The notes under the pieces were generated by a model. It did no database searches and had not been told where the DNA came from. It saw only the letters and a list, made by a program, of their open reading frames with translations. From a virus: a stretch of DNA of 64,000 bases. The DNA lies in the IMG/VR virus record IMGVR_UViG_3300032770_000003, positions 107,495 through 171,494 of that record. One strand, 5' to 3'. Shown here piece by piece: positions 17,321 through 56,637 of this stretch (within the stretch, counting starts at the first letter, position 1; every line of letters begins with the position of its first letter). The position numbers and the translations under genes are program-made.

Positions 17321-18037
17321 TCAAGCCTCCGCACACAACACGGACTGACGTGTGGTTTTTGTCAATCTCGTAATGTTGACTGAGCCGTCCGACTCCCTTG
17401 ATTGCACAGTTGCTAAAGCAACTTTCTTCATTACAGAACTGAGTCTGACACCACAAGCACGTGCCCACTGCTCTGGAGATTTGGCTGCCTTAGTACTGTT
17501 GCAGGGCTTGCACGCCGGAGCCAAGTTGTGTCGAGCGTGAAGTCCGCCCTTTACCAGAGGTACGATATGGTCAAGTGTCGTGGCGGCTCGTTTGCGGCAC
17601 CAAGCGCATTTGCCATCGAACGTACGAAAAAGGACGCGCAAGAATTCCAGACTAACAATCTCAACAGTGGCTGAGTGTATTCGTGCGCGACGACGATGCC
17701 AGCGCAACAAGGCACCAATTTTGCCCACAGGGCTGTAGTAATAGGCGCGGTTCTGTTTGAGTATCGCAGCCCTGTGCTTTGTATATCGAGAAGCGTGATA
17801 GGCCGCTATCTTTGTCTTGTTCGCCTGTCGGTAGGCGATGTCCTTTTCTCTGTTGTTACTGCGGTAACGTAATTCGATTTCACGAACCTTGGCGTAGTTG
17901 GTCTTGCGATAGACCTTGGCACGAAGGCGATGACACACACGACACCAACCTCCGTATCCATTCGGACAATTCTTATTCCTGACGAACGCACTGAGTGGAA
18001 GTGTGTGTCGACATTTGATACAAATGCGCGTGATCAT
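17321..18037 (-). CDS. HNH endonuclease with N-terminal Zn finger
   Basis: CIKC...WCRVC; CAWC...TLDHIVPLVKGGLHARHNLAPACKPCNSTK. Lower GC than its neighbours; directly after the portal. Confidence 0.88.
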   Translation of the reverse strand: MITRICIKCRHTLPLSAFVRNKNCPNGYGGWCRVCHRLRAKVYRKTNYAKVREIELRYRSNNREKDIAYRQANKTKIAAYHASRYTKHRAAILKQNRAYYYSPVGKIGALLRWHRRRARIHSATVEIVSLEFLRVLFRTFDGKCAWCRKRAATTLDHIVPLVKGGLHARHNLAPACKPCNSTKAAKSPEQWARACGVRLSSVMKKVALATVQSRESDGSVNITRLTKTTRQSVLCAEA

Positions 18038-21018
18038 TGTTTCATACCAGGGCCGCTTGCGGCCGCTTCATTATCTTGCCCGAAGTTGTCACTGTACTTC
18101 GGCCCAGCGGGTTTTCCTTCACCACCAGGACTACCACCGGGTTTACCTCCAGCTCCGGCGCCTCCTTGAGCCAATCCCTGCGCCTGAAGTGCGCTAATGT
18201 ATACCGGATTGAGGGGGACATCTCCACCTGGAAGTGGTGGCAGTGAAACCGTCTGTCTTCCTTCATTCAAACTCATGTAGCTGCTGATCTGCTCGACCAG
18301 CATCTCGTGTTTCTCGTTCTCGGACAGCTCATCGAGTCCGACGAACTCAAAGGTGAAGTGATCGTCGATCTTGTCGATGACGTGCTTGTTGATCAGCTTC
18401 GCGATGAACCGCAGAATTGGCTTGAGACCGCGGTCGCGCGAGGCTTTGAGCTTCCACTCCTGCGATGCCTCGAACAGCGGAGTCTGTTGCTGGCCTCCGT
18501 GGATCTCGAAGTTGATCTCAGCCGGATCGATCAGATACACGCCACAGGTGATCTTGATCAGATACTCAATCCACTTGCCGAACTCCATCTCCTGATTGGT
18601 CTTGGCGAGGTCAACCCACTCCAATCCTTCTGACTGGAGGATAGGAGTCTTCCAGCTGTTCTCGACGCCCGAGACCTGTGCGAGCCACTGCCGGCGGAAC
18701 CCTTCCAGCTGCTCAGGGGTGTAGTTGTCGCCCTTGAGGTTGAGGATGCCTTTGGGGGCAGTACCCTGAGAGAAGAACTTCCGGTTGTACTCCTCTGCGT
18801 AGAGGTGAGCGGTCACAATCGTGATGAGCTGCTCCAGCTCACCAAAGCCGTAACCCTGAATGTAGATGTCCGTGCGCGGGTTGCGAACCCCGAAGGACAG
18901 CTCGCTCGACGAGTAGACGTTCTCGATCTGGCCGTTGATGACCTGGACGTAGGCGATAGGACGGTTGCCGGAAAGCGGCTGTCCGTACTCACGCCCTTCG
19001 TAGAGGTTGGCGAAGCGACCCGGGACCGTGGGCTTGAAGCCCATGCGATCGTGGTACGACGTGTTCACGCCGACATAGCGATCGTCTGCTGCGATCCGGA
19101 TCGTGGCTGCATCGACCGCCCAAAACTCGTAGGGGAGGCCCATACCGTCGGGCACCACCTCGAAGCAGCAGTTGTGACTGGCGAAGCCTTCCGCTATGTA
19201 ACTATGATCCTCGTCAATCTCCAAGTTGAACACTGGGTAGTTCTCTACCCGCTCGCGAGTCACTTGTTCGATCTTGATGTAGAGGAATTCATCATCCTGA
19301 ATGAATGCACTACGCTGTTGCGTAGGAACAGGAATGTTCAGCAGGCGTCCATCGGACAGCGTCTGAAGACCTGTCCCACTGATGCGACCAACATACTTTT
19401 CTGAGTGATTGCGGCTATACGCCTCGTGCACGATCACCTGAGCCGGCACCACAGAACAACGGGTGTACATTCCCGCAGCTGCGAGCAATACCCGAAGTCC
19501 ACCAAAGAGCGCACGAGAGACTGTAGAAAAAGTCATAGAGGAGTTCGCTACGCTCCCATCACAGGCAAGGTAGCCGCGAAGGAAAGCCGCACGCACTTCG
19601 TCACTGGCTTCGAACATCCAAGATGGAACCCTCTTGTTGTGTGCACCATCACCGAAGTTCTCAGCCATGAAGCGGGCTAGCTCCACTGAGTTGCCAGTCA
19701 CTCCTGTGGCTGCACAGTCATCGTAACCAACGTCAGTCGTGCCAATTCCCAGGGAATCGAACACCTGGACGGCATGTATCAGCAGATGTTCATCATCTTT
19801 GTGGAAGGTCAAACCAACCGCGTTTGGTTCCTTGCGGGAGTTCTTTCCTGTGTGTCCGTTTGCTGTATAGAAGCCGCAAAAGGTCGCGAACTTCTCATCG
19901 AGGGTGACAGTATTAGGACGCGGAAGTGGTGAACGTGAAAAGCCGCGTTTCTCTGCTTCGTCCTTGACGAGCTGAATTGCTGGTCCGCCCCTGCGATAAT
20001 AGCCGCATAGAATTGCCCGCACAGTAACGACGTTGATGCCAGTCGCATCCGCAATCTCTCGATAAGGAATATTCGGGTACTGTCGAGCTTTGGTCTTGTC
20101 GAAGATCTGAAATTGAATCGGCTCAGTACGAATCGTAAGTTTGGGCTTTGGATAGACGAGATAGTGTTCGTCAGTCAGCTCCGAAGCTGGTGTCCAATCA
20201 GGCTTGATTCCCTTGCCGCGTGATGATGTCAGCCTGAACCATCGATCTGTAACTGCCAAGAACGGATGCTCGGAGGTGGCCCCGACTGACTGTCCACCAG
20301 ACCGGATCGTAATCAAATCACCCGTATACAAGCGGCGCATGCGCTCGACCACACGCCGAATGCGTCCGGTGTGGGTCCGGACTTCGGTTCCTACTTCGAT
20401 GGTCTCGATGGACTGAGGCACACCATCCGCGCACTCAATCTGCGTTGACGCAGGATGACACTGATCCAGAACCAAGCTGTCGCGGACGATCTTGCGCAGA
20501 AAGTTTTCGAAGTCGTCTCGATCGACACGCGCGTAGGGGTTGCGCTCAGCCCGACCACAGCGAAGGACGAAATCCTCCAGCTCCTTGATGAACTCCACCT
20601 CCGCCGGTGTCATCCGGTGGTCGGGGTCCTTGTGCCGAATCGCAAAGCCCAGCGAGCGCGTCCAGCGGTAGGGCTGCGCGAACGATGCCACCTGGGCCGC
20701 GCGAGTGTTGATGATCGCGTTTATGATCCCAAGCTGGGTGGCGATGCGCTTCAGGGTTTCGTAGGTCAGCGAGAAGCGACGATCCTTGTACCCCAGCGCG
20801 TACTGCAGACTGAGAGGATCGTGCATCCAGCTCTTCGGTGAGCGCTGGGGATCGGTGTTCGGGATCTGCTTCCAGGCTTTGCGCAGCTCTTGCGCGACGA
20901 TGACCGGAATGTGTTGCGTGGCCACCTGGGCAGCCGCCACCGTCTTGATGATCGACTCCATGTTGAGCCCGAGAGGGCCTGACATGGATGCACCTTTGTC
21001 CTTGCGCCGACGACTCAT
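18034..21018 (-). CDS. Phage portal protein with intein
   Basis: IINAIINTRAAQV...FENFLRKIVRDSL; VRNPRTDIYIQGYGFGELE...YNRKFFSQGTAPKGIL...EMEFGKWIEYLIKITCGVYLIDPAEINF...SRDRGLKPIL. Confidence 0.9.
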   Translation of the reverse strand: MSRRRKDKGASMSGPLGLNMESIIKTVAAAQVATQHIPVIVAQELRKAWKQIPNTDPQRSPKSWMHDPLSLQYALGYKDRRFSLTYETLKRIATQLGIINAIINTRAAQVASFAQPYRWTRSLGFAIRHKDPDHRMTPAEVEFIKELEDFVLRCGRAERNPYARVDRDDFENFLRKIVRDSLVLDQCHPASTQIECADGVPQSIETIEVGTEVRTHTGRIRRVVERMRRLYTGDLITIRSGGQSVGATSEHPFLAVTDRWFRLTSSRGKGIKPDWTPASELTDEHYLVYPKPKLTIRTEPIQFQIFDKTKARQYPNIPYREIADATGINVVTVRAILCGYYRRGGPAIQLVKDEAEKRGFSRSPLPRPNTVTLDEKFATFCGFYTANGHTGKNSRKEPNAVGLTFHKDDEHLLIHAVQVFDSLGIGTTDVGYDDCAATGVTGNSVELARFMAENFGDGAHNKRVPSWMFEASDEVRAAFLRGYLACDGSVANSSMTFSTVSRALFGGLRVLLAAAGMYTRCSVVPAQVIVHEAYSRNHSEKYVGRISGTGLQTLSDGRLLNIPVPTQQRSAFIQDDEFLYIKIEQVTRERVENYPVFNLEIDEDHSYIAEGFASHNCCFEVVPDGMGLPYEFWAVDAATIRIAADDRYVGVNTSYHDRMGFKPTVPGRFANLYEGREYGQPLSGNRPIAYVQVINGQIENVYSSSELSFGVRNPRTDIYIQGYGFGELEQLITIVTAHLYAEEYNRKFFSQGTAPKGILNLKGDNYTPEQLEGFRRQWLAQVSGVENSWKTPILQSEGLEWVDLAKTNQEMEFGKWIEYLIKITCGVYLIDPAEINFEIHGGQQQTPLFEASQEWKLKASRDRGLKPILRFIAKLINKHVIDKIDDHFTFEFVGLDELSENEKHEMLVEQISSYMSLNEGRQTVSLPPLPGGDVPLNPVYISALQAQGLAQGGAGAGGKPGGSPGGEGKPAGPKYSDNFGQDNEAAASGPGMKQ
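19171..20460 (-). mobile_element. LAGLIDADG intein (430 aa) with HTH insertion in portal
   Basis: DQ|CHPAST...ATSEHPF...GFYTANG...FLRGYLACDG...VFNLEIDEDHSYIAEGFASHN|C. Confidence 0.92.
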
Positions 21019-24591: not shown

Positions 24592-25683
24592 TCAGGGAGT
24601 CGGGGCGAACGCTCGCTGGACCACCCCCTCCACCACGGTGGCATCCGCCGGGGGCATCTGATTCAGGAAGCAGTATTTTGCCGCGATGAGAGGATTGCCC
24701 AGACTGACGAGGGTGTTGGCCCAGTTGATCAGGTCGCGGTGAGAGAGCGGCGGCACCGAGATCTCGCCGTTCTGATACGCCTTCCGGATCTTGCCCGCGG
24801 CCTTGACCAGGTAGCTGATGGCCAGCGGTTCGATCTTGCCCTCGAATCGGCGGCGCAGCATTTTGATCTCCTTCGCCTCGTCCAGGTATCCCAGGCTGAT
24901 GGTGAGGCTGAAGCGTTTGAGCTGAGCGTAGTTTTGCACCTTGGTGCCGGCGTAGTGCCCACTCTCGTCACCCAGGCCACGCGTGTTGGCGGTGGCGAAG
25001 TACGTGTTGTCAGGGTGGAGGGGAACCAGCGTTCCGCCGGTTTCGAGCACCAGGAGCTGCCCCTGGTTCTGATCGAGGGGCCGCTGGAACACGAAGGCCG
25101 TGTCGTTGGTCATCGCATCCCACTCGTCGAGCAGGATGATGGTTCCCGGCATGCGGTGCGCTCGCGCGAGCATCCCCCAGGAGAAGTCCATCTCCTTGCC
25201 CTTGACGATCCACTCGCCCACCAGATCGGGGCGCGTGATCCCGCCGTCGAGGCTGATCAGGACGACCTGATAGTTCAGCCGCGCGGCGATCTGCTGAATG
25301 AGCGTCGTCTTGCCGACGCCGCTGTGGCCGTGCACCAGCACCCGCTGCCGGGTGGCGAGCCCCATCAGCGCGATCTTGGTGTCTTCCTCCGGGAACTCGT
25401 AGCCCGGATCGATCTCCGGCACCCACGGCGTGCGATCGGCGTAGCCCATGATCTTGGGCGAGCGCCTGACCGGCTTGCCGTTCGCGTCCTTCTGTATGTT
25501 GCCAGACGCGTCACGTACGAAGTAGTTCAAGCCGAACGTCTCCGAGACGTCGTACTCCTTCTTGACGCGCTCCGGATACTCCGGTGGTACCAGCGGCTGA
25601 AGTGGTGCCGTCCCCACCTGAACCTGCTGTTGACTGACCGGGCGGCGACGTAGCGGTGCAGCAGCAACCTCTTCTTGAGCCAT
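24592..25683 (-). CDS. cobS: CobS/MoxR-like AAA+ ATPase
   Basis: VPEIDPGYEF; GHSGVGKT; ILLDEWD; FATANT. Start ATG 25683, after the 21-nt motif. Confidence 0.8.
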   Translation of the reverse strand: MAQEEVAAAPLRRRPVSQQQVQVGTAPLQPLVPPEYPERVKKEYDVSETFGLNYFVRDASGNIQKDANGKPVRRSPKIMGYADRTPWVPEIDPGYEFPEEDTKIALMGLATRQRVLVHGHSGVGKTTLIQQIAARLNYQVVLISLDGGITRPDLVGEWIVKGKEMDFSWGMLARAHRMPGTIILLDEWDAMTNDTAFVFQRPLDQNQGQLLVLETGGTLVPLHPDNTYFATANTRGLGDESGHYAGTKVQNYAQLKRFSLTISLGYLDEAKEIKMLRRRFEGKIEPLAISYLVKAAGKIRKAYQNGEISVPPLSHRDLINWANTLVSLGNPLIAAKYCFLNQMPPADATVVEGVVQRAFAPTP

Positions 25684-25727
25684 GACTTCAGTTCCCCTTT
25701 CGACGGGAGGTCGATCCGCACAGAAGT

Positions 25728-26834
25728 TCAGATCAGCAGCGACAACCGCCACTGCACGTATGCGCTGCTCCGTGCATCTATCCGATCGCGTAGTCGCTCA
25801 GCCAACCACAACACCACACTCGTGTTGACGAGCGCGTCCCCCGCGTCGACCTTGACACTGTGTGTCTCATCAATTAAGTTGACAATTGAAATACGAGTCT
25901 CAGGAAATGCTGACTTGATCCGCTCCACTGAGCGCACCGATTCCCGCGTGGCATCCGCATCCCAGCAAAAGATGATCTCCCCAGGTCGCAGCTCCCTGAG
26001 CAGCTCGACTTGAGCTTCCGAGATCGACTTGCCGAAAGTGCAGAGAGCCGGGGTGCCGTAGCGGAGAAACCCCAACGCATCGAATACGCCCTCCACCAGG
26101 ACGACAGCACCGCCAGATCGGTAGCGTTCAAAGAAGCACGGTTCCAGTGGCCACAGCCAATCGTGAACGTTGGCGCTGGACAGATACTTGATCTCTTTAC
26201 CAGCTATGCGCCGGCCTTGCCAAGCAACATCTCGCTGACCCACCCGAATCGGAAAGACCAGCCACGGCCCCCTGACCTCGTTCACCTTGCCCGTGACCGG
26301 ATTGACCTTCCGAGCTGGCAGACGGAGAGCCGCTCCCAAGCGGAGAGCCCGGATCTCCGCATCTCTCAGTCCCCGTACTTGAGTCGCGTACTGGTAGACC
26401 TCCTGGCTCGTGAGGCCGGTGAAGGTTGCTGCGCCCGGCACCACCACCGCCTCAGGGGAGTAGATCCTGGTCTCGGACACCGGCTCAGCGAAGAGCGTAG
26501 CCAGCGTCTGCACCAGACCCGGATCACCAGAGATAGCCGGTAGGACGGTACTGAGTAGCTCGATCCGGATCGCGGTCTCGTGGCGATCCGAAACCGCAGC
26601 CATCAGCTCCGCTAGGTCAGGCGCCCAGCCGTCGGCGCGCTTGCGGCCCCAGTCGCACTTGTAGCAAATCCAACGCTTCTTCTCGACGTTGACGTAGAGC
26701 TTCCAGTCGTCAGCTCCGCACTTCGGGCAGACCTCGATTCGACGCTCGTCACCGCCACCATCCTTGAGCTGGACGTACTGCTCAAGCCACGCCTCAAGAT
26801 CGAGATCGTCGATCGCCTCCCGCAGAGTGGTCAC
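25728..26834 (-). CDS. dnaG: DNA primase (Zn finger plus TOPRIM)
   Basis: CPKC...WICYKC; VAWQGR; KYLSS; VLVEGVFDA; CWDAD. Confidence 0.82.
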   Translation of the reverse strand: MTTLREAIDDLDLEAWLEQYVQLKDGGGDERRIEVCPKCGADDWKLYVNVEKKRWICYKCDWGRKRADGWAPDLAELMAAVSDRHETAIRIELLSTVLPAISGDPGLVQTLATLFAEPVSETRIYSPEAVVVPGAATFTGLTSQEVYQYATQVRGLRDAEIRALRLGAALRLPARKVNPVTGKVNEVRGPWLVFPIRVGQRDVAWQGRRIAGKEIKYLSSANVHDWLWPLEPCFFERYRSGGAVVLVEGVFDALGFLRYGTPALCTFGKSISEAQVELLRELRPGEIIFCWDADATRESVRSVERIKSAFPETRISIVNLIDETHSVKVDAGDALVNTSVVLWLAERLRDRIDARSSAYVQWRLSLLI

Positions 26835-29905: not shown

Positions 29906-32014
29906 CTACCCTTTCTTGTGCCTGAGGCACTGGTCTATCTGATTCAGACCTTGACGAGGTAATTCGTCAAGCTTTTTCACTACCACAGTGTTCGAATATA
30001 TGCCAGTGACTGCGTCGGTCTCGATTCCGATCACTACGAGTTCAACGAGCTTTTCTACCGCCCTGGCACAATCCGTAGCGTAGTTGACATGCGCTGCGTG
30101 GTCCTCATCAAACCTCGGGAATCTCTGTCGACTATCGTCCACATCCCACACGGGCGCAACCGGCACCGGCTCCCCGTCGTTGAAGACGAAGAGGAGCTTG
30201 CGTTTCTCAGGCCGAGAGAGGAGCATCCGAGCGCCAAGCTTGACGGTCTCCCCATCGTAGGTGTTCGCCTTGAGGTTCTTAGGCATCTGCAGGAAGCGCG
30301 GCCCGGCCGCATACCAGGAATCGCCGAAGGACTTGTACTCCCCCAGCCAGAGATCCCCCCAGCGCTGATAGGTGGCCTGGACCTCGGGAGTCGTCGGCAG
30401 CTTGCGCCGGAACGCCACTTCGGGCTGAGAGGTTGACCAGCCGTAGCACGCGAAGGGAATCTTGAGCTGGTTGAACAGCTCGCCGAAGATGACGGCCGTC
30501 TGTGCGGCCAACAGGATCTTGCTCCCGTCCATCGACCCGGAGTGATCCACCAGCAGCAGTGCACAGGTATCGAACGCCTCGCCTGCGACCTGTGACCGAA
30601 ACACGTCCTTGCCGGTGCCGTTCACGACCTTGTACAGTCGCCGGCCGTTGAGCTTCCCGCGGAACTTGCCTTCCTCCCAGCGGCTCTGGGTGCGCGCCAT
30701 GAGCGCCCGCGTGAGCTTGAGCTTCATCGGGGCGACCATCGCGTTCGCCTGGTTCATGAAGCGGACGAACTCCGTGCGATCGCCCTCCTTGATCTTCTCG
30801 ATGGTGTCACCCTCCGTCGTGAAGATCTGGTAAGCGTGGCTACCCTTGCGCGCCTCTTCGACCGCTTTCTGGAGCAGCTCACCACGATCCGGAGCTTGTT
30901 TTTGCTCCGCACGCACCTCTTCCTCAGAGGGATCGAAGTTTGGTGCTGGCGCTGGGGCGGGGGCCTGTGACGGGGGCGCCTGCTCTTCTTCCTGGGACTC
31001 TTCCTCGCCACCACTTCCCTCTTTCGCGCCTTCGTCTTCCTCGCCCTGCTCGGATCCTGTGGCCGCACCCGCGGGCGGAGAGTCGTCTTCCGACTCATCC
31101 TCCTGTTCCGCGTCCCCCCCGTCGGCCTCTCCATCACCCTGTTCAGAGTCGTCCTCTGATCCCTGCGGCGGGGCCGTCTCCGTCTCTTCCGTCTCCTCAG
31201 GATCAGAATCCTCAGACTGCGACTGTTGCGGTTGGGGCTGCGGTTGCTCCGGCTGCTCCGGCTGCTCGAACATCGCCTGTTCTTGCGGCGACGGGGGCGG
31301 CGGGGGCGGCTGGTTCGACTGCTGTTGCCGTGGCTGCTGCTGCGGCTGTTGCGGCTGTTGCTGAGGGGGCGGCGGCGGGGGCGGGGGTGGCGTCGTGTCC
31401 TTCAGCCGTTCGAGAAGGATCTCAGCAAGCTCCCGCACCTCACGGGTGCTCCGAGCTTCGAACCGCGCTCGGCGGAAGAGGTCTTCTCCGTCCCGCTGAA
31501 AGCGCGCGAGGATCTCAGGCTCGACCACCGTCTGCAGAAACCAGTGATCGTAGTTGAATCCCGTGGTCGCGTACGCGAGCCCGGTGTAGAGGAATTTCCC
31601 GAGTGCCGTGCGTGTCGCCCAGGCTTGCGCCGGATTCGCCGCGACCTTGCGCAGATCCCACTCTGCGGCAAAATCGAAGTTGGATTGCGCTCCGGGGTAG
31701 ATGTCGATCCACCTCTGCTCGATCCGCGGATCCTCCAGCGCGTTCAGCGCGAGGAAGAGCTTGGGCTTGCGCGCCAGCTCCTCCAGCATGTCGAAGTCGC
31801 TGTGGACGCAATGAGACGCTTCGTGGTCCAGGTAACCCTGTGTCGCGCGCAGCAGCTCGTCGCTGGCATCGTCCGGGAGCAGCGGCAGATAGATCGTCTT
31901 GCCGTTGGTGCGAGGTTGTGCGTGCGTGAAGATGACCTTGAGCTTCCACTGCTCCACCAGGATGCGCGCCAGGCGTTCCAGCGATGACTCGACGATTCGA
32001 AGCTGCTGCGTCAT
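29906..32014 (-). CDS. cobT: CobT-like VWA-domain protein
   Basis: GYLDHEASH, NALEDPRIE, acidic/Pro linker, MIDAS LVDHSGSM, VFNDGEP. Confidence 0.82.
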   Translation of the reverse strand: MTQQLRIVESSLERLARILVEQWKLKVIFTHAQPRTNGKTIYLPLLPDDASDELLRATQGYLDHEASHCVHSDFDMLEELARKPKLFLALNALEDPRIEQRWIDIYPGAQSNFDFAAEWDLRKVAANPAQAWATRTALGKFLYTGLAYATTGFNYDHWFLQTVVEPEILARFQRDGEDLFRRARFEARSTREVRELAEILLERLKDTTPPPPPPPPPQQQPQQPQQQPRQQQSNQPPPPPPSPQEQAMFEQPEQPEQPQPQPQQSQSEDSDPEETEETETAPPQGSEDDSEQGDGEADGGDAEQEDESEDDSPPAGAATGSEQGEEDEGAKEGSGGEEESQEEEQAPPSQAPAPAPAPNFDPSEEEVRAEQKQAPDRGELLQKAVEEARKGSHAYQIFTTEGDTIEKIKEGDRTEFVRFMNQANAMVAPMKLKLTRALMARTQSRWEEGKFRGKLNGRRLYKVVNGTGKDVFRSQVAGEAFDTCALLLVDHSGSMDGSKILLAAQTAVIFGELFNQLKIPFACYGWSTSQPEVAFRRKLPTTPEVQATYQRWGDLWLGEYKSFGDSWYAAGPRFLQMPKNLKANTYDGETVKLGARMLLSRPEKRKLLFVFNDGEPVPVAPVWDVDDSRQRFPRFDEDHAAHVNYATDCARAVEKLVELVVIGIETDAVTGIYSNTVVVKKLDELPRQGLNQIDQCLRHKKG

Positions 32015-32048
32015 TGTCCCCTCGACAGGAGGTCGATCCGCACAGAAG

Positions 32049-32870
32049 TCAAAATCGCCAGTGCGCGCGTATAGCCTTGGCCAGCTCGTGAGCTGCAAGC
32101 GAAGTGCGCACTGTGACACGGTAACTACAGGTCGCGTACTTCGACGCCACCTTCGCCGGTGTCGGAGTTGGAGGTTCGAGCTGGTGCAGATCCGCCTGCA
32201 TGTAGCGAAACGTACCGAGTGCCGCTGAGATCTCAGTCAGCCGGTCTATCAGCTCGGGTACGATGCCAACGAAAGCGTATTTACCGGTGTCAAGCCAGAA
32301 TCGAACGATCACGAGTCCGTCACGCATCACACTGCAGTAGCTCGCAGTCAGAGCGAGCTGATACTGCCCGCGGTGCGCATACTGCGTTGCAAAATCACGC
32401 GCCGACCACATCAGCGGCAGGACGGGCAGCTCCCCTAGCGTCCGCCGGAATTCAGCCAGGAACGAGTCGACGGCGCGACCCATAGGCACATACTCGCGCC
32501 TCGCGTATTTATCGGTACCGGCCCAGCGGCTCTTTTTGGTGGCGGGCTTCTTTCCGTGCTTCGCGGGCGGGGACGATGGACGCGGCGGGGGCGGCAGCGG
32601 ATCTTGTTTCAAGGGGACTACGAGCTGGGGACCGCTGGCCACAGCTACCGCCTCAGTGCGAAGCTTCCAGGCGCGTTCGCAGAAGCGCGCGAGACCACAG
32701 CTCGGTGCTTCGCCACAGGGCCCTTCGCCTTCGACCACGAAGAGACCAAAGCAATCAGTCTGATCAACCGTCGCCGTCTCCTCAGGACGCATCGAGCGCT
32801 TGATTAGCTTGACCACCGGGACTAGCCACGGGTCACGGGCCCATTCAACCTGCGGAAGCTCGTTGGACAT
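32049..32870 (-). CDS. Hypothetical protein with Cys cluster
   Basis: DCFG...C...C...C; GAGG RBS. Confidence 0.6.
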   Translation of the reverse strand: MSNELPQVEWARDPWLVPVVKLIKRSMRPEETATVDQTDCFGLFVVEGEGPCGEAPSCGLARFCERAWKLRTEAVAVASGPQLVVPLKQDPLPPPPRPSSPPAKHGKKPATKKSRWAGTDKYARREYVPMGRAVDSFLAEFRRTLGELPVLPLMWSARDFATQYAHRGQYQLALTASYCSVMRDGLVIVRFWLDTGKYAFVGIVPELIDRLTEISAALGTFRYMQADLHQLEPPTPTPAKVASKYATCSYRVTVRTSLAAHELAKAIRAHWRF

Positions 32871-32911: not shown

Positions 32912-33166
32912 GATAACGTGCTCTAGGTGCGAACGATCCAGAATCAGAGTTGACTTGTCAAGGTCTTTTCCGCTGTTGCCGTCGCATGTATTTGTCAGCC
33001 CAGTGGGCGGGCTTTGGCCTGCGCCGCAGCACTAGCTGACCCGAAAGGCTGCAGCGCGGTTCCCCGAACCAGTCAGGCGCGTCCCCCAGGTTGTGAACCG
33101 GAAACCGATGGTCATCTCGGATCGGTAGGACTGCGCTGCAGCGGCACGTCCGCCAGTGAAACGTCA

Positions 33167-33472
33167 TCAGCGCTGCACGGGCAGGTCGTCACGGTGGAGG
33201 TACGAGATCGTGACTTCGCCCGTGTGGGGATCGGTGACGTCGGCGATCTGATACTCGCCATACAGCGCCGCCCGCCAGCGGAGCCGATCAAGCAACCTCT
33301 CCCGCGCATCGATGTCATGCACCGGCGCGAAGTCGCGCAGATCCTTGGGCCGAATCTCGGTCAGCACCACCGGGGTGGGCTCGACCCTGACCACCTCCAG
33401 CGAGCCTTGCTCCTGGAACACATCCTCGATTCGCGACGCGAACAGCTTCAAGAACTTCTGCAGGAATGCCAT
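33167..33472 (-). CDS. Hypothetical protein
   Basis: AAGGAGG RBS before MAFLQKF. Confidence 0.55.
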   Translation of the reverse strand: MAFLQKFLKLFASRIEDVFQEQGSLEVVRVEPTPVVLTEIRPKDLRDFAPVHDIDARERLLDRLRWRAALYGEYQIADVTDPHTGEVTISYLHRDDLPVQR

Positions 33473-33548
33473 TGTCAGAATCCTCCTTCGGTAGATTTGG
33501 GTTCGGCCTTGACATGTCAAGGCTTGGGGTGTTTAGATGAAGCACAGC

Positions 33549-33608
33549 GGCTAGGCAAGGCTCGGCCTGGATCGTTTCGGCTAGGTCAGGCTTGACTGGG
33601 TTCGGCAG
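33549..33608 (+). ncRNA. Orphan GGNNN-pentamer unit (putative guide RNA)
   Basis: GGCTA GGCAA GGCTC GGCCT GGATC GTTTC GGCTA GGTCA GGCTT GACTG GGTTC GGCAG; same leader as the array at 53480; hairpin follows. Confidence 0.65.
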
Positions 33609-33660
33609 GCATGGAAGCCGGGGTGGGGAGATGTGTCATCCACTCCCGGCTCTCTTCGCC

Positions 33661-33707
33661 CGAAAGGTCGATCCGCACAGATGTCTTTTGTGCGGATCGA
33701 CCTTTCG
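33661..33707. repeat. Back-to-back inverted pair of the 21-nt motif (19-bp perfect arms)
   Basis: CGAAAGGTCGATCCGCACA-N9-TGTGCGGATCGACCTTTCG. Confidence 0.9.
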
Positions 33708-33723
33708 GCGAAAGGACCGACCA

Positions 33724-33864
33724 ATGGCCAAAAAGACCAAATACAACCCTGAGAAACGTGCATGGCGCGGCCGTTCCTATAAAAACGGCGGCCGTCGCGT
33801 CAAAGATCTGCGCGATGCAGGGAAGGCTTCAACAGCGCTGGCAGACGCCAAGCACTCAGGTTGA
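33724..33864 (+). CDS. Small basic protein
   Basis: AAGGA RBS and ATG right after the plus-oriented motif; MAKKTKYNPEKRAWRGR. Confidence 0.5.
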   Translation: MAKKTKYNPEKRAWRGRSYKNGGRRVKDLRDAGKASTALADAKHSG

Positions 33865-34620
33865 GATGTCAGATTCGCGCGGCGGTACGTAGGCGGTGTG
33901 GGCGCGCACTTGGTGGATCTCCGGCTTAGCGCGATTCGGCACAAAGACCGCCGCCGTCAGCCAGCCCCCAAAACAGCACCCCGTGTCAATGCCATAGCAC
34001 TCGACGCCGTTGTCACGTACGTCAATGCGTACCGCGTGGCGGTCGTGGCGGATGTGCCCATACACCACGGACTGCGGCCCCACCCACCGCTCAGTCCAGT
34101 ACACCGACCCTGGAGGTAGCTCGTGGGGGTTCCCAGTGGACGCATAGGCGCCTGCCCCGTCCACCCAGCGACAGCGCAGGATCTGTCGGTAGTCCACCTG
34201 CTCTAGGGCTCGATTGGACGGTATGCCCCCGTGGGTCACCAGCCAGGGGCGCTCCATGTGGATGAACTGCAGCACGATGGGCAGGCGCGCCAACCACTGC
34301 CGATCGTCTGCAGACAGCGCTGCGTGCTGCGCGAGACGGGTAGCCGAACGTGGGCGCATGGGGTTCTTGTAGTGTGGGTCTTCCTGGCAGCGCGCCTCAT
34401 GGCGTGCATAGCGCAGAGCCCACTCCTCATGATTACCCATCACCACCTCAGCCCCCACCTCCTGCATGAAGTGCACAACACCTACAGGATCGGGACCGCG
34501 ATCGATCAGGTCACCTACCGAGATCAGCCGGTCAGCGCCCGTACGAAACTGGAGCTGGTCTAGCAGCTCTCTCAGTTCGAGGAGACAACCGTGAATGTCA
34601 CCGACGACGATCGTTCTCAC
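33856..34620 (-). CDS. ApaH/PrpE-like calcineurin-type metallophosphoesterase
   Basis: GDIHG, GDLIDRG, GNHE, HGG, YGH, IDTG. Confidence 0.88.
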   Translation of the reverse strand: MRTIVVGDIHGCLLELRELLDQLQFRTGADRLISVGDLIDRGPDPVGVVHFMQEVGAEVVMGNHEEWALRYARHEARCQEDPHYKNPMRPRSATRLAQHAALSADDRQWLARLPIVLQFIHMERPWLVTHGGIPSNRALEQVDYRQILRCRWVDGAGAYASTGNPHELPPGSVYWTERWVGPQSVVYGHIRHDRHAVRIDVRDNGVECYGIDTGCCFGGWLTAAVFVPNRAKPEIHQVRAHTAYVPPRESDIST

Positions 34621-53415: not shown

Positions 53416-53439
53416 ACCGCTGACCTGTTTTTCAGCCAC

Positions 53440-53469
53440 TTGACCCGTCAAGCGCGGGTGTTGTAGGGT
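53440..53469 (+). promoter_or_regulatory. Putative promoter/leader of pentamer array 1
   Basis: TTGACCCGTCAA...GGGTGTTGTAGGGT, beginning 40 nt before the array, the same offset as 33509 to 33549. Confidence 0.55.
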
Positions 53470-53479
53470 TGCCCCCGTT

Positions 53480-54190
53480 GGCACGGTCGGGTCAGGTGCG
53501 TTATGGCATGGTGAGGCAGGATGGGTTGGGCGAGTCTGGGCTTGGGTTGGCCCGGCTTGGCGGGGCAGGAAGGGCTCGGCGAGGCTTGGCAAGGCATGGC
53601 TAGGAAGGGACAGGCAAGGCAGGAATGGTGCGTAGGGGATAGGCACGGCTGGGATCGGATGGGATCGGAACGGCAGTCGAGGAAAGGTGTGGTCACGCCC
53701 GGTAAGTCGAGTCGTGGCAGGGCAGTCGAGTCGAGGAACGGAAAGGAAAGGGTGGAAGGCAGTGGTAGGGCAGGATCGGTCAGGACCGGCAAGGCGGTGT
53801 TGGAATCGGAATGGTCCGGCAGCTTAGGTGAGGAGTGGTGAGGCACGGTTTGGTTTGGAATGGAGCGGCAGTCTCGCAGAGGTGAGGTATGGCAAGGCAT
53901 GGAGTGCACGGCTAGGAAAGGCAGTCACGGACAATGGCGCGCCAGGGTTTGGGGGGTTGGGTATGGAATGGAAAGGCACGGCAGTAGAGGACCGGAAGGG
54001 CCGGGTCAGGATGGGATTCGCAGGGCAGGGGCGTGGCAGGTCGGGCCAGGTATGGTGCGTTTTGGCTGGGCGAGGAACGGTTGGGTTTGGCAGTCGAGGT
54101 TAGGAAGCGAAGCGAAGGTCAGGGTGTGGCTCGGCAGTCCTGGTCGGGAATGGGTCGGCAAGGAAGTAAACGGCATGGCAGTCGCGGCAG
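53480..54190 (+). ncRNA. GGNNN pentamer array 1 (putative guide-RNA array)
   Basis: Period-5 GG(C/T/A)NN; about 15 units of roughly 45-50 nt, each ending GGCAG plus a 4-nt linker (often TCGA or TCNN). Confidence 0.75.
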
Positions 54191-54257
54191 CCAAATCGTA
54201 GGCAACCAACGTGACTGTGCAACTTGAGAACTGACACTTTGTGAAAGGGGACTTGGA

Positions 54258-54992
54258 ATGCGAAATGGAACGACAACAGCACCGCTGCCTTCGGCATTGA
54301 CCAAGCGGCGAGGTCGACCACCCAAAGCGCGACCGTGGGAGGACGATACCGGCGAAGTGCCGCCGACCAAGATCGACATCAAGGAAAAGATCGCCAAGCC
54401 GACCAAGGAAAAGACGGCGGCGATTTTCATCCCCAAGATTGCCGTCAACCACACCACGATCAAGGTGATCGGCATCTCCAGTCTGATCGTGCATGCGTGG
54501 AGCGAGAAGGCCAAAAAGGAAATGCGCGACAAGCAGACTGGCGTCGCCACGCAAAAGCGTGAGTTCAAGGTCCCCATGGACGACTTCAACGGCGCTCGCT
54601 ACCTCAATGCTGAGGGTAAGGATTGTGTTCCTGCGCTCGCCTTCCGCAACGCCGCGGTTGAGGCGGGTGTGCTCGCCGGCGTCTTCAAGACGACGTTGCG
54701 CAAAGCATTCTTCATCACCGGCCCTGACCTGATTCCGATCATCAGCGATCCTCCCATCATGAGAGAGGACATGGTGCGTGTCGGTCAGGGTACCGCCGAT
54801 CTCAGGTATCGGCCCGAATACAAGAACTGGAGCTGCGTCGTCCCTGTCGAGTTCAACCCCAAAGTGCTGAGCCTCGAACAGCTCGTCAACCTATTCGACA
54901 ACGCGGGTTACGCGATTGGCATTTGCGAGTGGCGGCCCCAGCGCGATGGTCAATTCGGACGCTTCCGCGTGGCCATCGATAGCACCAAGTAA
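54258..54992 (+). CDS. Cas7/RAMP-like protein between the pentamer arrays
   Basis: IKVIGISSLIVH (RAMP strand 1), VPALAFRNA (IP.sslKG-like), terminal Gly loop AGYAIGICEWRPQRDGQFGRF; AAGGGG RBS. Confidence 0.7.
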   Translation: MRNGTTTAPLPSALTKRRGRPPKARPWEDDTGEVPPTKIDIKEKIAKPTKEKTAAIFIPKIAVNHTTIKVIGISSLIVHAWSEKAKKEMRDKQTGVATQKREFKVPMDDFNGARYLNAEGKDCVPALAFRNAAVEAGVLAGVFKTTLRKAFFITGPDLIPIISDPPIMREDMVRVGQGTADLRYRPEYKNWSCVVPVEFNPKVLSLEQLVNLFDNAGYAIGICEWRPQRDGQFGRFRVAIDSTK

Positions 54993-54995
54993 GGG

Positions 54996-55782
54996 GGCAA
55001 GGCAGGGATCGGGCGGAAGGGCTAGGTTGGCTAGGCTTGGCAGTCATGGGCCGGGTGTGTTCCGGAACGGAAGGGGTCGGCGCGGAATGGCACGGCAGTC
55101 AGCGCAGGGCTTGGTTCGGCTTGGCCAGGTTGGTTCCGGTTCGGAGCGGCTAGGCAAGGCAGTCGAGGCCGGGGAGTGGGCTAGTCTGGGCGAGTCAGGG
55201 TAGGGTCGGCCAGGGACTGGATTGGCAGTCGAGGTTAGGAGTGGAATGGACGGGTAAGTCACGGCTTGGCAGGAACGGCGAGGCCCGGCGCGGCCCGGAC
55301 CGGTAGGGCCCGGCACGGTATGGTCCGGTACGGACTGGCAGGGCAGGAATGACTAGGCTAGTTACGGCACGGCACGGATCGGCACCGCTGGGCAGTCGGA
55401 GGCTGGGAAAGGCGCGTTTTGGACCCGTGGGGCTGGGTGTGTTTGGGCATGGATTGGAACGGAACGGAGCGGCATGGCAGTCAAGGCAAGGTGTTGCGGG
55501 GCAACGCGAGGAATGGTGTGGCAGTCGGGGCGGGGCGAGCTTTGCGTGGATGGGCGGGGAATGGCAGTCGTGGTGAGGTTGGGAAGCGAGAGGAGAGGAA
55601 AGGCATGGCGGGGCAGTCGGGGCCGGGCAATGTGAGGTCGGGCAGGGTGCGAGCGGGCGCGGCTGGTAAGGTGCGGGGCAGGGAATGTTTCGGCAGTGTT
55701 GGGCAAGGTGGGCAGCGCATGGCAGTTGTGGCGAGGTCCGGCGTGGGATCGCTGGGCCGGTTCGGTGTGGCAGGCTTGGTTT
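54996..55782 (+). ncRNA. GGNNN pentamer array 2 (putative guide-RNA array)
   Basis: Same grammar; GGCAGTC delimiters at about 55039, 55094, 55158, 55223, 55391, 55476, 55520, 55563, 55612. Confidence 0.75.
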
Positions 55783-55812: not shown

Positions 55813-56364
55813 ATGGCAATCGCAGAGATCGATCCCACAAGCATTCGAGCGCGACCTGGTTCTCGGCTCACGAACAAACAAGCGTTGGCGATCGCACCGA
55901 CGCTGTTTGCGATTGAACAGCGGGACGGGTTGGTCAAGCCCGAAGCTGTGCTGGAGGCTGCCCAGCAGAATCCGGGATCAGAGCTGCACTCACTGTTCCC
56001 CTGGAGCGATGCGGATGCGGCCCGCGCTCACCGACTCAACATCGCTCGTTCGATCATCCGCAGTGTGACGTACAAGGTGATCCGCTACGGCAACGGATCA
56101 CTCAATGACTACGTACCGTGTTTCGTGCGCATACGGGAGGACGGCGAACCCCAGCTCGACGGCAGCACAACACTCCCGCAAACCGGCTACGCATCCGTCA
56201 CCCGGGTGCTCGACAATGAGCACCTCCGTTCGCAGATCATCGCGGCCGCGGTACGCGAGCTGAACCAGGTTGTGCGCAAGCTCGAAACCTTGAAGGGGCT
56301 CGAACGGGCACTGACAAACGCGAAAGAGCTGCTCGAACAGCTCAAGAAAGCCAGCGCAGCTTGA
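55813..56364 (+). CDS. Phage protein directly downstream of array 2 (candidate accessory gene)
   Basis: GLVKPEAVLEAA..PGSELHSLFPWSDADAARAHRLNIARSIIRSV; GAGG RBS. Confidence 0.7.
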   Translation: MAIAEIDPTSIRARPGSRLTNKQALAIAPTLFAIEQRDGLVKPEAVLEAAQQNPGSELHSLFPWSDADAARAHRLNIARSIIRSVTYKVIRYGNGSLNDYVPCFVRIREDGEPQLDGSTTLPQTGYASVTRVLDNEHLRSQIIAAAVRELNQVVRKLETLKGLERALTNAKELLEQLKKASAA

Positions 56365-56592: not shown

Positions 56593-56637
56593 GGAACGGT
56601 TGGGCCCCGCAAGGTAGGGGTTGGAGCGGCATGGCAG
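56593..56637 (+). repeat. Single extra GGNNN unit
   Basis: GGAAC GGTTG GGCCC CGCAA GGTAG GGGTT GGAGC GGCAT GGCAG. Confidence 0.55.

What the first reader, a model, noticed from the sequence alone, without database searches (positions are those of the whole stretch)
33507..33657. Orphan pentamer unit 20 kb from the array locus, with its own leader and hairpin
Seen: 12 in-phase pentamers ending GGCAG (variable dinucleotides TA AA TC CT TC TC TA CA TT TG TC). The leader CTTGACATGTCAAG...GGGTGTTTAG matches CTTGACCCGTCAAG...GGGTGTTGTAG before array 1, and both palindromes start exactly 40 nt before the first GG. A GC-rich hairpin (GCCGGGGTGG...CCACTCCCGGC) follows. Inference: a stand-alone single-guide transcription unit acting in trans, which supports the arrays being functional RNAs.
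Basis: partly seen in the sequence, partly recalled or inferred. Interest (0 to 1): 0.8.

Follow-up and report, generated by a model that had tools for sequence, protein, structure and literature searches.

The report
Stand-alone VIPR guide RNA gene in phage
The 12-pentamer tract is real and is best read as a separately transcribed guide RNA (vrRNA) of the phage's own VIPR system, a CRISPR-like silencing system first described in 2026 preprints. Its code exactly matches a conserved gene of an unrelated rival phage.

Summary
At 33549-33608 (+) there are 12 in-phase pentamers, 10 starting GG, ending GGCAG. They follow a leader shared with array 1 and precede a GC-rich hairpin.

The window is the last 64 kb of a 171-kb uncultured phage. 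The "RAMP-like" gene (54258-54992) is a true homolog of the experimentally characterised Vipr of phage SUSP1 (hhalign 97.9%, E 5e-13). It has a Cas7/Csm3 fold (Z 10) and keeps the guanine-binding residues. So the arrays and the orphan are vrRNAs of a VIPR system (bioRxiv 10.64898/2026.04.26.720920).

Read by the published 1-nt-skip rule, the orphan's dinucleotides match 12/12 (24 bases) a site in a 220-aa gene of an unrelated 156-kb phage from root metagenomes. The skipped bases fall on codon wobble positions. Controls (0-skip, 2-skip, reversed pattern, two array guides) gave no hit. The homologous site in Streptomyces, Rhodococcus and Caulobacter phages matches 20/24. There is no self-target.

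However, the kind is already in print, including "solo" vrRNAs, and this scan has met VIPR on other DNA before. Transcription and Vipr binding are not shown here. The palindrome is a phage-wide motif (9 copies), not specific to vrRNA. Verdict: new member of a known kind.

The parts
33508..33521 (+). Perfect palindrome CTTGACATGTCAAG holding a TTGACA -35-like hexamer on either strand. Shared with the array-1 leader (53439-53452). One of 9 copies of TTGACNNGTCAA in the genome.
33526..33538 (+). Leader box GGGTGTTTAGAT, shared with array 1 (GGGTGTTGTAGGGT). Candidate weak -10 region; it gives the unit its + orientation.
   Evidence: no hit in the consensus promoter scan
33544..33608 (+). vrRNA guide tract: 13 pentamers. 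These are ACAGC, then 11 variable GGNNN units, then the terminal constant GGCAG. Guide dinucleotides: GC TA AA TC CT TC TC TA CA TT TG TC.
33613..33655 (+). GC-rich hairpin followed by CUCUCUUCG; candidate terminator or 3' cap of the solo vrRNA.
33660..33708 (.). Perfect inverted repeat with 20-bp arms and a 9-nt loop. It lies between the vrRNA unit and the convergent phosphoesterase gene; possible bidirectional terminator.
53439..54190 (+). Array 1 with its leader: about 17 vrRNA units, each ending GGCAG, typical lengths 44/49/54 nt.
54258..54992 (+). vipr gene (244 aa, phrog_4652). RAMP/Cas7-like fold; homolog of SUSP1 Vipr.
54996..55773 (+). Array 2: about 20 vrRNA units ending GGCAG.
55813..56364 (+). 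Candidate vipr-accessory gene (183 aa, phrog_15946). Homolog of the gene that follows vipr in Mycobacterium phage Brocalys (gp46).
56593..56637 (+). One further vrRNA-like unit (9 pentamers ending GGCAT GGCAG) downstream of the accessory gene.

Best explanation
The orphan is a solo vrRNA gene of the phage's own VIPR system.

Inferred: a promoter in the shared leader (TTGACA inside the palindrome, then the GGGTGTT-TAG box) starts an RNA at about 33544. The RNA runs through 13 pentamers and ends at or before the GC-rich hairpin.

By homology with SUSP1 VIPR (cryo-EM, 10.64898/2026.04.26.720927): one Vipr protomer, made from the gene 20 kb away, binds each GGN. The protomers form a helical filament that flips out the three scaffold bases and presents the two variable bases.

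Shown by sequence match only: these dinucleotides pair with double-stranded DNA while skipping every third target base. They specify a 35-bp site in a conserved 220-aa gene (phrog_30881 family) of an unrelated 156-kb phage.

Inferred from the SUSP1 experiments: binding represses transcription of that gene when both phages meet in one cell. Because the skipped bases fall on codon wobble positions and the site encodes a conserved motif (E-x-N-x-Y-D-D-S-D-F), the guide tolerates synonymous drift. It still matches 83% of positions in distant homologs.
For: - Pentamer tract, GGCAG end, shared leader at identical spacing, hairpin.
- Tracts of this kind occur only on the + strand, at the VIPR locus and at this site.
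- The protein has a RAMP fold: the top ~30 PDB hits are all Csm3/Cmr4/Cas7, VIA Z 10.0, Foldseek E 3e-5 (model pLDDT 84).
- It is a homolog of SUSP1 Vipr: hhalign probability 97.9%, E 4.7e-13. The residues that bind G1/G2 in SUSP1 are kept: H17/R138/W178/R179 correspond to H79/R185/W225/R226, and D177 to E224. All are invariant or nearly invariant in 32 relatives.
- The same vipr plus GGCNN arrays ending TGGCAG sit side by side in Mycobacterium phage Brocalys and Gordonia phage Ecliptus.
- Target: the 22-base gapped pattern has 2 exact hits in viral contigs, both from the same phage lineage. The match extends to 24/24, lies in a real gene (GC3 0.98), and has its skip bases on wobble positions.
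- Within the target genome the scores are 22/22 at skip 1 against 14/22 at skips 0, 2 and 3, and a maximum of 16 for shuffled guides.
- Database controls gave 0 hits: reversed pattern (62), 0-skip (93), 2-skip (94), two array guides (72, 73).
- The homologous site in phages Yara, Dorin and C2 scores 20/24, against 13-14/24 elsewhere in those loci.
- No self-target, and no homolog of the target gene in the phage itself.
- Mechanism and rule: papers read.
Against:
- No promoter or terminator passed the consensus scans. The -10 candidates are weak.
- The palindrome is a genome-wide motif and is symmetric, so it may serve the divergent minus-strand gene instead.
- The unit lacks the ~40-nt pseudoknot tail of type II vrRNAs. 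Whether GGCAG plus the hairpin suffices as a 3' end is unknown.
- Two of the 12 pentamers lack GG.
- The hosts of both phages are unknown, so co-infection is unproven. The target phage has 67% GC against 59% here.
- None of the ~28 array guides matches the target phage, so there is no convergence of several guides on one rival.
- One exact hit in the far larger metagenome set lies in AT-rich low-complexity DNA. This shows that chance matches to this AT-rich pattern do occur.
Confidence: 0.78

Rival explanations
1. It is a stray, decaying copy of an array unit: the leader plus first unit duplicated to a new place, no longer used. The database match would then be chance.
For: Two pentamers have lost GG. 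No consensus promoter or terminator was found. One chance-looking hit exists in metagenome contigs. No close relatives of this phage are available to show conservation of the site.
Against: A 24/24 match in phase with codons in a 67%-GC genome is very unlikely by chance for a pattern with 15 of 22 bases A/T. Four control patterns and two other guides gave 0 hits. The site is homologous and 83% matched in three distant phages. Degenerate internal units are reported as common in working vrRNAs (paper). The leader, GGCAG end and hairpin are intact.
Confidence: 0.1
2. It is a real vrRNA, but it serves as a decoy or regulator. It would tune or titrate Vipr, or be aimed at another element such as a host prophage or satellite, as shown for satellite solo vrRNAs. 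It would not silence the phage found here.
For: Solo vrRNAs that redirect Vipr to decoy sites are documented (10.64898/2026.10.15.759431). The unit has its own promoter-like leader with a palindromic operator-like site shared by 9 loci, which suggests separate regulation. Hosts are unknown.
Against: No match was found in 185,579 species genomes or in the phage itself. The only in-frame exact match is a phage gene.
Confidence: 0.08
3. The tract acts at the DNA level or as a leader. It would be a row of protein-binding iterons, a G-quadruplex-prone element, or a 5' UTR controlling the small + strand ORF at 33725-33865 or the divergent gene.
For: Period 5 is half a helical turn. (GGNNN)n can in principle form two-tier G-quadruplexes. 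A small basic ORF with a Shine-Dalgarno-like AAAGGA follows.
Against: Two strong hairpins separate the tract from the ORF. The grammar, the GGCAG end and the link with a Vipr homolog are those of characterised guide RNAs. A DNA iteron model does not explain the coding-phase match to another phage.
Confidence: 0.04

Closest known systems
VIPR systems (Vipr + vrRNA + vap). Type II exemplars are Escherichia phage SUSP1 and a Pseudomonas fulva prophage (bioRxiv 10.64898/2026.04.26.720920; structures in 10.64898/2026.04.26.720927).
   Same: A phage-encoded lone RAMP protein homologous to SUSP1 Vipr. Guide RNAs written as 5-nt units with constant GG and two variable bases. Arrays flank vipr. A small accessory gene follows. 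The natural target is found with the 1-nt-skip rule, with skip bases on wobble positions. There is no self-target.
   Different: - Position 3 of the unit is not restricted to pyrimidine: C 38, A 24, T 24, G 14% over 261 units. This goes with Ala-Ala (A131/A132) where SUSP1 has the purine-excluding E71/M72; this is my reading of the alignment and is an inference.
- There is no ~40-nt pseudoknot tail. Units abut and end in GGCAG plus a 4-nt linker.
- The arrays are very large (about 37 units).
- The accessory gene is unrelated to SUSP1 vap1.
- I could not determine which of the seven published types this is, because no supplementary tables are held.
Solo / orphan vrRNAs of F5 satellites and VIPR-null SUSP1-like phages (bioRxiv 10.64898/2026.10.15.759431).
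   Same: A single vrRNA encoded away from any vipr-vap operon, with its own flanking non-coding context, and presumed to load onto Vipr in trans.
   Different: Those elements lack vipr and borrow a rival's protein, or sit where vipr was deleted. They aim at host REP elements, vipr genes or other vrRNAs. Here the phage keeps its own vipr 20 kb away, the unit shares its leader with the main array, and the predicted target is an ordinary conserved gene of an unrelated phage.
Class 1 CRISPR crRNA with a Cas7 backbone (types I/III).
   Same: RAMP fold (Z about 10 to Csm3/Cmr4). One protomer per short RNA segment. Thumb-driven periodic base flipping. A variable guide with a constant 3' end.
   Different: There are no CRISPR repeats, no cas1/cas2 and no other cas genes. 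The period is 5 nt, with only 2 of every 5 bases pairing. The target is read with a 3-nt period.
Mycobacterium phage Brocalys gp45/gp46 and other Cheoctovirus (cluster F) phages; Gordonia phages Ecliptus and UmaThurman.
   Same: 33-37% identical Vipr homologs. Adjacent GGCNN arrays whose units end TGGCAG. A homologous accessory gene.
   Different: Their arrays are short (200-250 bp) and the genes are annotated only as hypothetical proteins. No remote solo unit was looked for there.

Membership tests
VIPR system (Vipr protein) | RAMP fold: RRM core with thumb hairpin and glycine-rich loop | tested here: met
   AF2 model pLDDT 84. Foldseek and VIA-align top hits are all CRISPR RAMPs, with Z 10.0 to Cmr/Csm3 over residues 60-243. 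There is a beta-hairpin at 167-188 and a C-terminal G-rich stretch (G217, G221, G231, G234 invariant).
VIPR system (Vipr protein) | Sequence homology to an experimentally characterised Vipr (SUSP1) | tested here: met
   hhalign of the 32-sequence alignment against KT454805 28474-29061(-): probability 97.9%, E 4.7e-13, 169 columns. Plain tblastn did not reach SUSP1.
VIPR system (Vipr protein) | Residues that bind G1 and G2 of the repeat (SUSP1 H17, D177, R138, W178) and R179 | tested here: met
   They align to H79, E224 (a conservative change), R185, W225 and R226. All are invariant or >=90% conserved in the family alignment (residue roles from the paper).
VIPR system (Vipr protein) | Non-CRISPR context: lone RAMP, no CRISPR repeats, small accessory gene | tested here: met
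   No Rfam CRISPR or other RNA family was found in the window. The neighbours are pentamer arrays and a 183-aa gene that is conserved next to vipr in Brocalys.
vrRNA (VIPR guide RNA) | At least 4 tandem 5-nt units with constant GG(Y) and hypervariable NN | tested here: met
   The orphan has 12 units, 10 with GG. Array-wide information content is 1.0-1.2 bits at positions 1-2 and <0.1 bit at positions 3-5. Position 3 is N rather than Y; the paper lists an NNNGG variant.
vrRNA (VIPR guide RNA) | Constant 3' tail after the repeat tract | tested here: inconclusive
   Every unit ends GGCAG, as do the units of the actinophage homologs. There is no 40-nt pseudoknot tail as in type II. The orphan has a GC-rich hairpin instead.
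vrRNA (VIPR guide RNA) | Natural target found with the 1-nt-skip rule (>=80% NN match) and no self-target | tested here: met
   24/24 in phage record G001, with 0-skip, 2-skip and reversed controls empty. 20/24 in three homologs. The best self-match is 15/22.
vrRNA (VIPR guide RNA) | Expressed as a discrete small RNA that co-purifies with Vipr | not testable with these tools
Solo vrRNA as defined in 10.64898/2026.10.15.759431 | Encoded without the vipr operon on the same element | tested here: not met
   The same phage carries vipr 20 kb downstream. This unit is remote from the locus, not VIPR-null.

The most novel reading that the evidence does not exclude
The phage spreads its VIPR guides over separate transcription units. 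One guide, against a protein family conserved in many actinobacterial and Caulobacter phages, is placed 20 kb from vipr, antisense inside a minus-strand gene block. It sits under a palindromic operator-like promoter class used at about 9 sites in the genome. It would therefore be expressed on a different schedule from the two big arrays. This clade would also show that the 1-nt-skip code holds for a Vipr with a relaxed third scaffold base and a 5-nt GGCAG 'tail'.
Probability: 0.35. Interest if true: 0.45.

Novelty: new member of a known kind. Interest (0 to 1): 0.35.

Why it matters
The finding adds a clean natural example to a system that is only months old in the literature.

- It is a VIPR-positive phage from a clade not studied experimentally. 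That clade includes the well-known cluster F mycobacteriophages, where the genes are still annotated as hypothetical.
- The phage keeps one guide as an independent gene far from the locus.
- A concrete, testable target can be named for that guide.
- The exact, codon-phased match supports the generality of the 1-nt-skip code outside the SUSP1 clade. It also supports the idea that guides aim at conserved protein motifs so that synonymous changes cannot escape them.

It does not open a new kind of biology: VIPR, its code and solo vrRNAs are already described.

Tried and rejected
- Rfam at gathering thresholds: nothing in the window.
- blastn of the array locus against the phage collection: no match.
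- Consensus promoter/terminator scan of 33000-34200: nothing.
- Relatives of the phage that might keep the orphan at the same place: the neighbouring phosphoesterase has no relative above 38% identity in viral contigs, and none of those 80 loci has a comparable tract. Conservation could therefore not be tested.
- The closest Vipr relative (69% identity) sits on a contig whose DNA could not be delivered.
- Array guides: none of about 28 matches the target phage above shuffled level. Two long array guides have no exact hit in viral contigs. Their targets remain unknown, and a mismatch-tolerant database search was not possible with these tools.
- Genome contigs: no exact hit for the orphan pattern.
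- Metagenome contigs: one hit in AT-rich low-complexity DNA (L102), judged to be chance.
- Host inference: the portal resembles SPO1-like phages at about 43% and an AAA protein resembles Pseudomonas/Salmonella phages at about 39%. Neither is informative.
- Ideas considered before the literature search and dropped: a TRAP-like ring-protein RNA, a CsrA sponge, G-quadruplex DNA, and centromere-like iterons.

Full report
**What is there.** The window is bases 107495-171494 of a 171,494-bp uncultured phage record, 59% G+C and 96% complete. At 33549-33608 the + strand reads as twelve in-phase pentamers. Ten begin with GG and the last is GGCAG.

With a GG frequency of 0.068, about 2e-5 such sites are expected per strand of this genome. 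A whole-genome scan finds tracts of this kind only on the + strand. They lie in the two arrays around 53.5-55.8 kb, in one more unit at 56593-56637, and at the orphan.

The leader claim also holds. A 14-nt perfect palindrome and a GGGTGTT-TAG box precede both the orphan and array 1. The first in-phase GG lies 41 nt after the first base of the palindrome in both. A GC-rich hairpin follows (-29.7 kcal/mol), and then a perfect hairpin with 20-bp arms.

One correction is needed. TTGACNNGTCAA is a genome-wide motif with nine copies, and all six in-window copies are intergenic. It is a promoter or operator class of the phage, not a vrRNA-specific signal. Because it is symmetric, it could equally serve the divergent gene that starts at 33472.

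**What the arrays are.** The arrays consist of about 37 abutting units. Typical lengths are 44, 49 or 54 nt (5k+4). Each unit ends GGCAG and is followed by a 4-nt linker that shifts the phase. Over 261 non-terminal pentamers, positions 1-2 carry 1.0-1.2 bits, and positions 3-5 carry less than 0.1 bit.

The gene between the arrays (54258-54992, 244 aa) has no Pfam hit. It belongs to phrog_4652 and has more than 3,300 relatives in metagenomes.

Its homologs in Mycobacterium phage Brocalys (gp45) and Gordonia phage Ecliptus (gp19) lie directly beside GGCNN arrays whose units end TGGCAG. The 183-aa gene after array 2 is homologous to Brocalys gp46. The protein-plus-pentamer-array module is therefore conserved across very distant phages.

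**Identification.** A full-text search led to a 2026 preprint describing VIPR systems. These comprise a phage-encoded ancestral RAMP protein (Vipr) and vrRNAs of 9-16 GGY/NN pentamers. The NN bases pair with double-stranded DNA while skipping every third target base.

A companion cryo-EM paper shows one Vipr protomer per repeat and names the residues that hold G1, G2 and Y3. A third preprint describes "solo" vrRNAs in satellites and in phages that have lost vipr.

I tested membership rather than assuming it.

- The AlphaFold model (pLDDT 84) matches almost only CRISPR RAMPs. VIA-align gives Z 10.0 to Cmr and Csm3 subunits over residues 60-243, and Foldseek gives E 3e-5.
- I located the SUSP1 VIPR locus in KT454805 from its two large intergenic gaps and its visible GGT-NN arrays.
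- A profile of 32 relatives aligns to the SUSP1 Vipr with 97.9% probability and E 4.7e-13.
- In that alignment the SUSP1 residues H17, R138, W178 and R179 correspond to H79, R185, W225 and R226, and D177 corresponds to E224. All are invariant or nearly so in this clade.
- The helix-1 residues said to exclude purines at position 3 (E71, M72) align to two alanines. This fits the relaxed third base seen here, but it rests on a weakly supported part of the alignment and is an inference.

**The orphan's target.** Converting the orphan to the published pattern (NN joined by one wildcard, 22 specified bases) gave two exact hits in the viral collection. Both come from one phage lineage found in two root metagenomes: a complete 155,979-bp genome of 67% G+C and an 86-kb fragment.

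- The match extends one more unit upstream, to the GC of pentamer ACAGC at 33544-33548, giving 24/24.
- It stops at the constant GGCAG.
- It lies inside a 220-aa gene with GC3 of 0.98, on the strand antisense to the gene.
- All skipped bases fall on third codon positions of ...E-H-N-W-Y-D-D-S-D-F-Y.... This is the signature reported for natural VIPR targets.

Within that genome the guide scores 22/22 at skip 1, against 14/22 at skips 0, 2 and 3 and at most 16/22 for shuffled guides.

At database scale, the reversed pattern, the 0-skip pattern, the 2-skip pattern and two long array guides all gave no hit.

By my own arithmetic, 22 fixed bases give 5.7e-14 per position at uniform composition. 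In 67%-GC DNA the figure is about 1e-15, because 15 of the 22 bases are A/T. Even 1e11 bases searched on both strands would then give about 0.01 hits at uniform composition, and fewer in GC-rich DNA. The size of the collection is not stated by the tool, so this is an estimate.

The one exact hit in the much larger metagenome set lies in AT-rich, low-complexity DNA and looks like chance. The species-genome set has none.

**The target gene and the rival phage.** The target protein belongs to phrog_30881, of unknown function. It has homologs in Streptomyces phage Yara, Rhodococcus phages, Caulobacter jumbo phages and others. The best-conserved stretch (residues 40-97) includes the target site.

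At the homologous site the guide matches 20/24 in Yara, in Dorin and in Caulobacter phage C2. Elsewhere in those loci it matches only 13-14/24. That is above the 80% threshold the authors use.

The guide is thus aimed at a conserved protein motif in a way that ignores wobble variation. The third preprint argues the same logic for SUSP1.

The rival phage is unrelated to this one: one shared ORF at 33% identity. It has no vipr and no arrays. This phage has no homolog of the target gene, and no guide matches its own genome above chance.

**How it most likely works, and what is not shown.**

- Shown: the sequence grammar, homology of the protein to a characterised Vipr, conservation of the module, and the codon-phased exact match.
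- Inferred: that the leader is a promoter. TTGACA is perfect, the -10 candidates are weak, and nothing passed the consensus scan.
- Inferred: that the RNA starts near 33544, which is about where a start site would fall and where the target match begins.
- Inferred: that the hairpin ends or caps the RNA, that Vipr made 20 kb away loads on it, and that binding silences the rival gene.

I could get no RNA data. The hosts of both phages are unknown, so an encounter between them is assumed. Only this guide, and none of the array guides, matches that rival.

**Comparison and novelty.** This is a VIPR system, and the orphan is a vrRNA. It differs from the type II exemplars in four ways: the free third base, the minimal GGCAG end in place of a pseudoknot tail, the very large abutting arrays, and a different accessory gene.

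It differs from the published solo vrRNAs because the phage still has its own vipr. It therefore fails their "VIPR-null" definition and is better called a remote or dispersed guide.

These are differences of degree within a kind already in print. Notes from this scan show that VIPR arrays and orphan guides have been met several times on other DNA. I therefore rate it a new member of a known kind, of moderate interest. Its main value is the concrete target prediction and the link to the tractable mycobacteriophage homologs.

Noticed in passing
window 24203, 32899, 32950, 33508, 34936, 53439; genome 11814, 16130, 67769: The palindrome TTGACNNGTCAA(G) occurs 9 times in the 171-kb genome (about 0.16 expected). 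All six in-window copies are intergenic. Four of them lie 23-36 nt upstream of minus-strand start codons, and a fifth, at 32950, lies about 80 nt upstream. It is probably a phage promoter/operator class, and some of these mRNAs may be leaderless. Its regulator is unknown.
   Followed up: partly
window 33725-33865 (+): A small basic 46-aa ORF (MAKKTKYNPEKRAWRG...) with an AAAGGA ribosome-binding-like site follows the long perfect hairpin, just downstream of the orphan vrRNA. It overlaps the 3' end of the convergent phosphoesterase gene by about 10 nt. Whether it is a real gene was not tested.
   Followed up: no
window 56593-56637 (+): A further vrRNA-like unit (9 pentamers ending GGCAT GGCAG) lies about 230 nt downstream of the accessory gene and outside both arrays. 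It has no match in the rival phage.
   Followed up: partly
L001 3670-3900 (Mycobacterium phage Brocalys) and L002 4715-4940 (Gordonia phage Ecliptus): Cultured actinophages carry the same vipr homolog with GGCNN arrays whose units end TGGCAG. The genes are annotated only as hypothetical proteins. In Brocalys the annotated start of gp45 (locus 3893) overlaps the end of the array. These phages would allow bench tests in M. smegmatis.
   Followed up: partly
window 53480-55773: The third base of the pentamer is nearly free (C 38, A 24, T 24, G 14%), unlike the published GGY. In the alignment to SUSP1 Vipr, the purine-excluding E71/M72 are replaced by A131/A132, and C173 is replaced by I220.
   Followed up: partly
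window 18034-21018 (-): The portal gene is interrupted by an intein with a LAGLIDADG domain (Pfam Intein_splicing and LAGLIDADG_3). Its flanks resemble SPO1-like portals at about 43% identity.
   Followed up: no
window 24592-25752 and 29906-32119 (-): A CobS-like AAA+ ATPase and a CobT-like VWA protein pair. This pair is frequent in large phages.
   Followed up: no
L106 27480-28040 (-), Escherichia phage SUSP1: The third downstream SUSP1 vrRNA ends ...GGTAT GGAAG GATGGCAGTAGCC. It therefore also contains TGGCAG, the motif that closes every unit in this phage and in the actinophage arrays.
   Followed up: no
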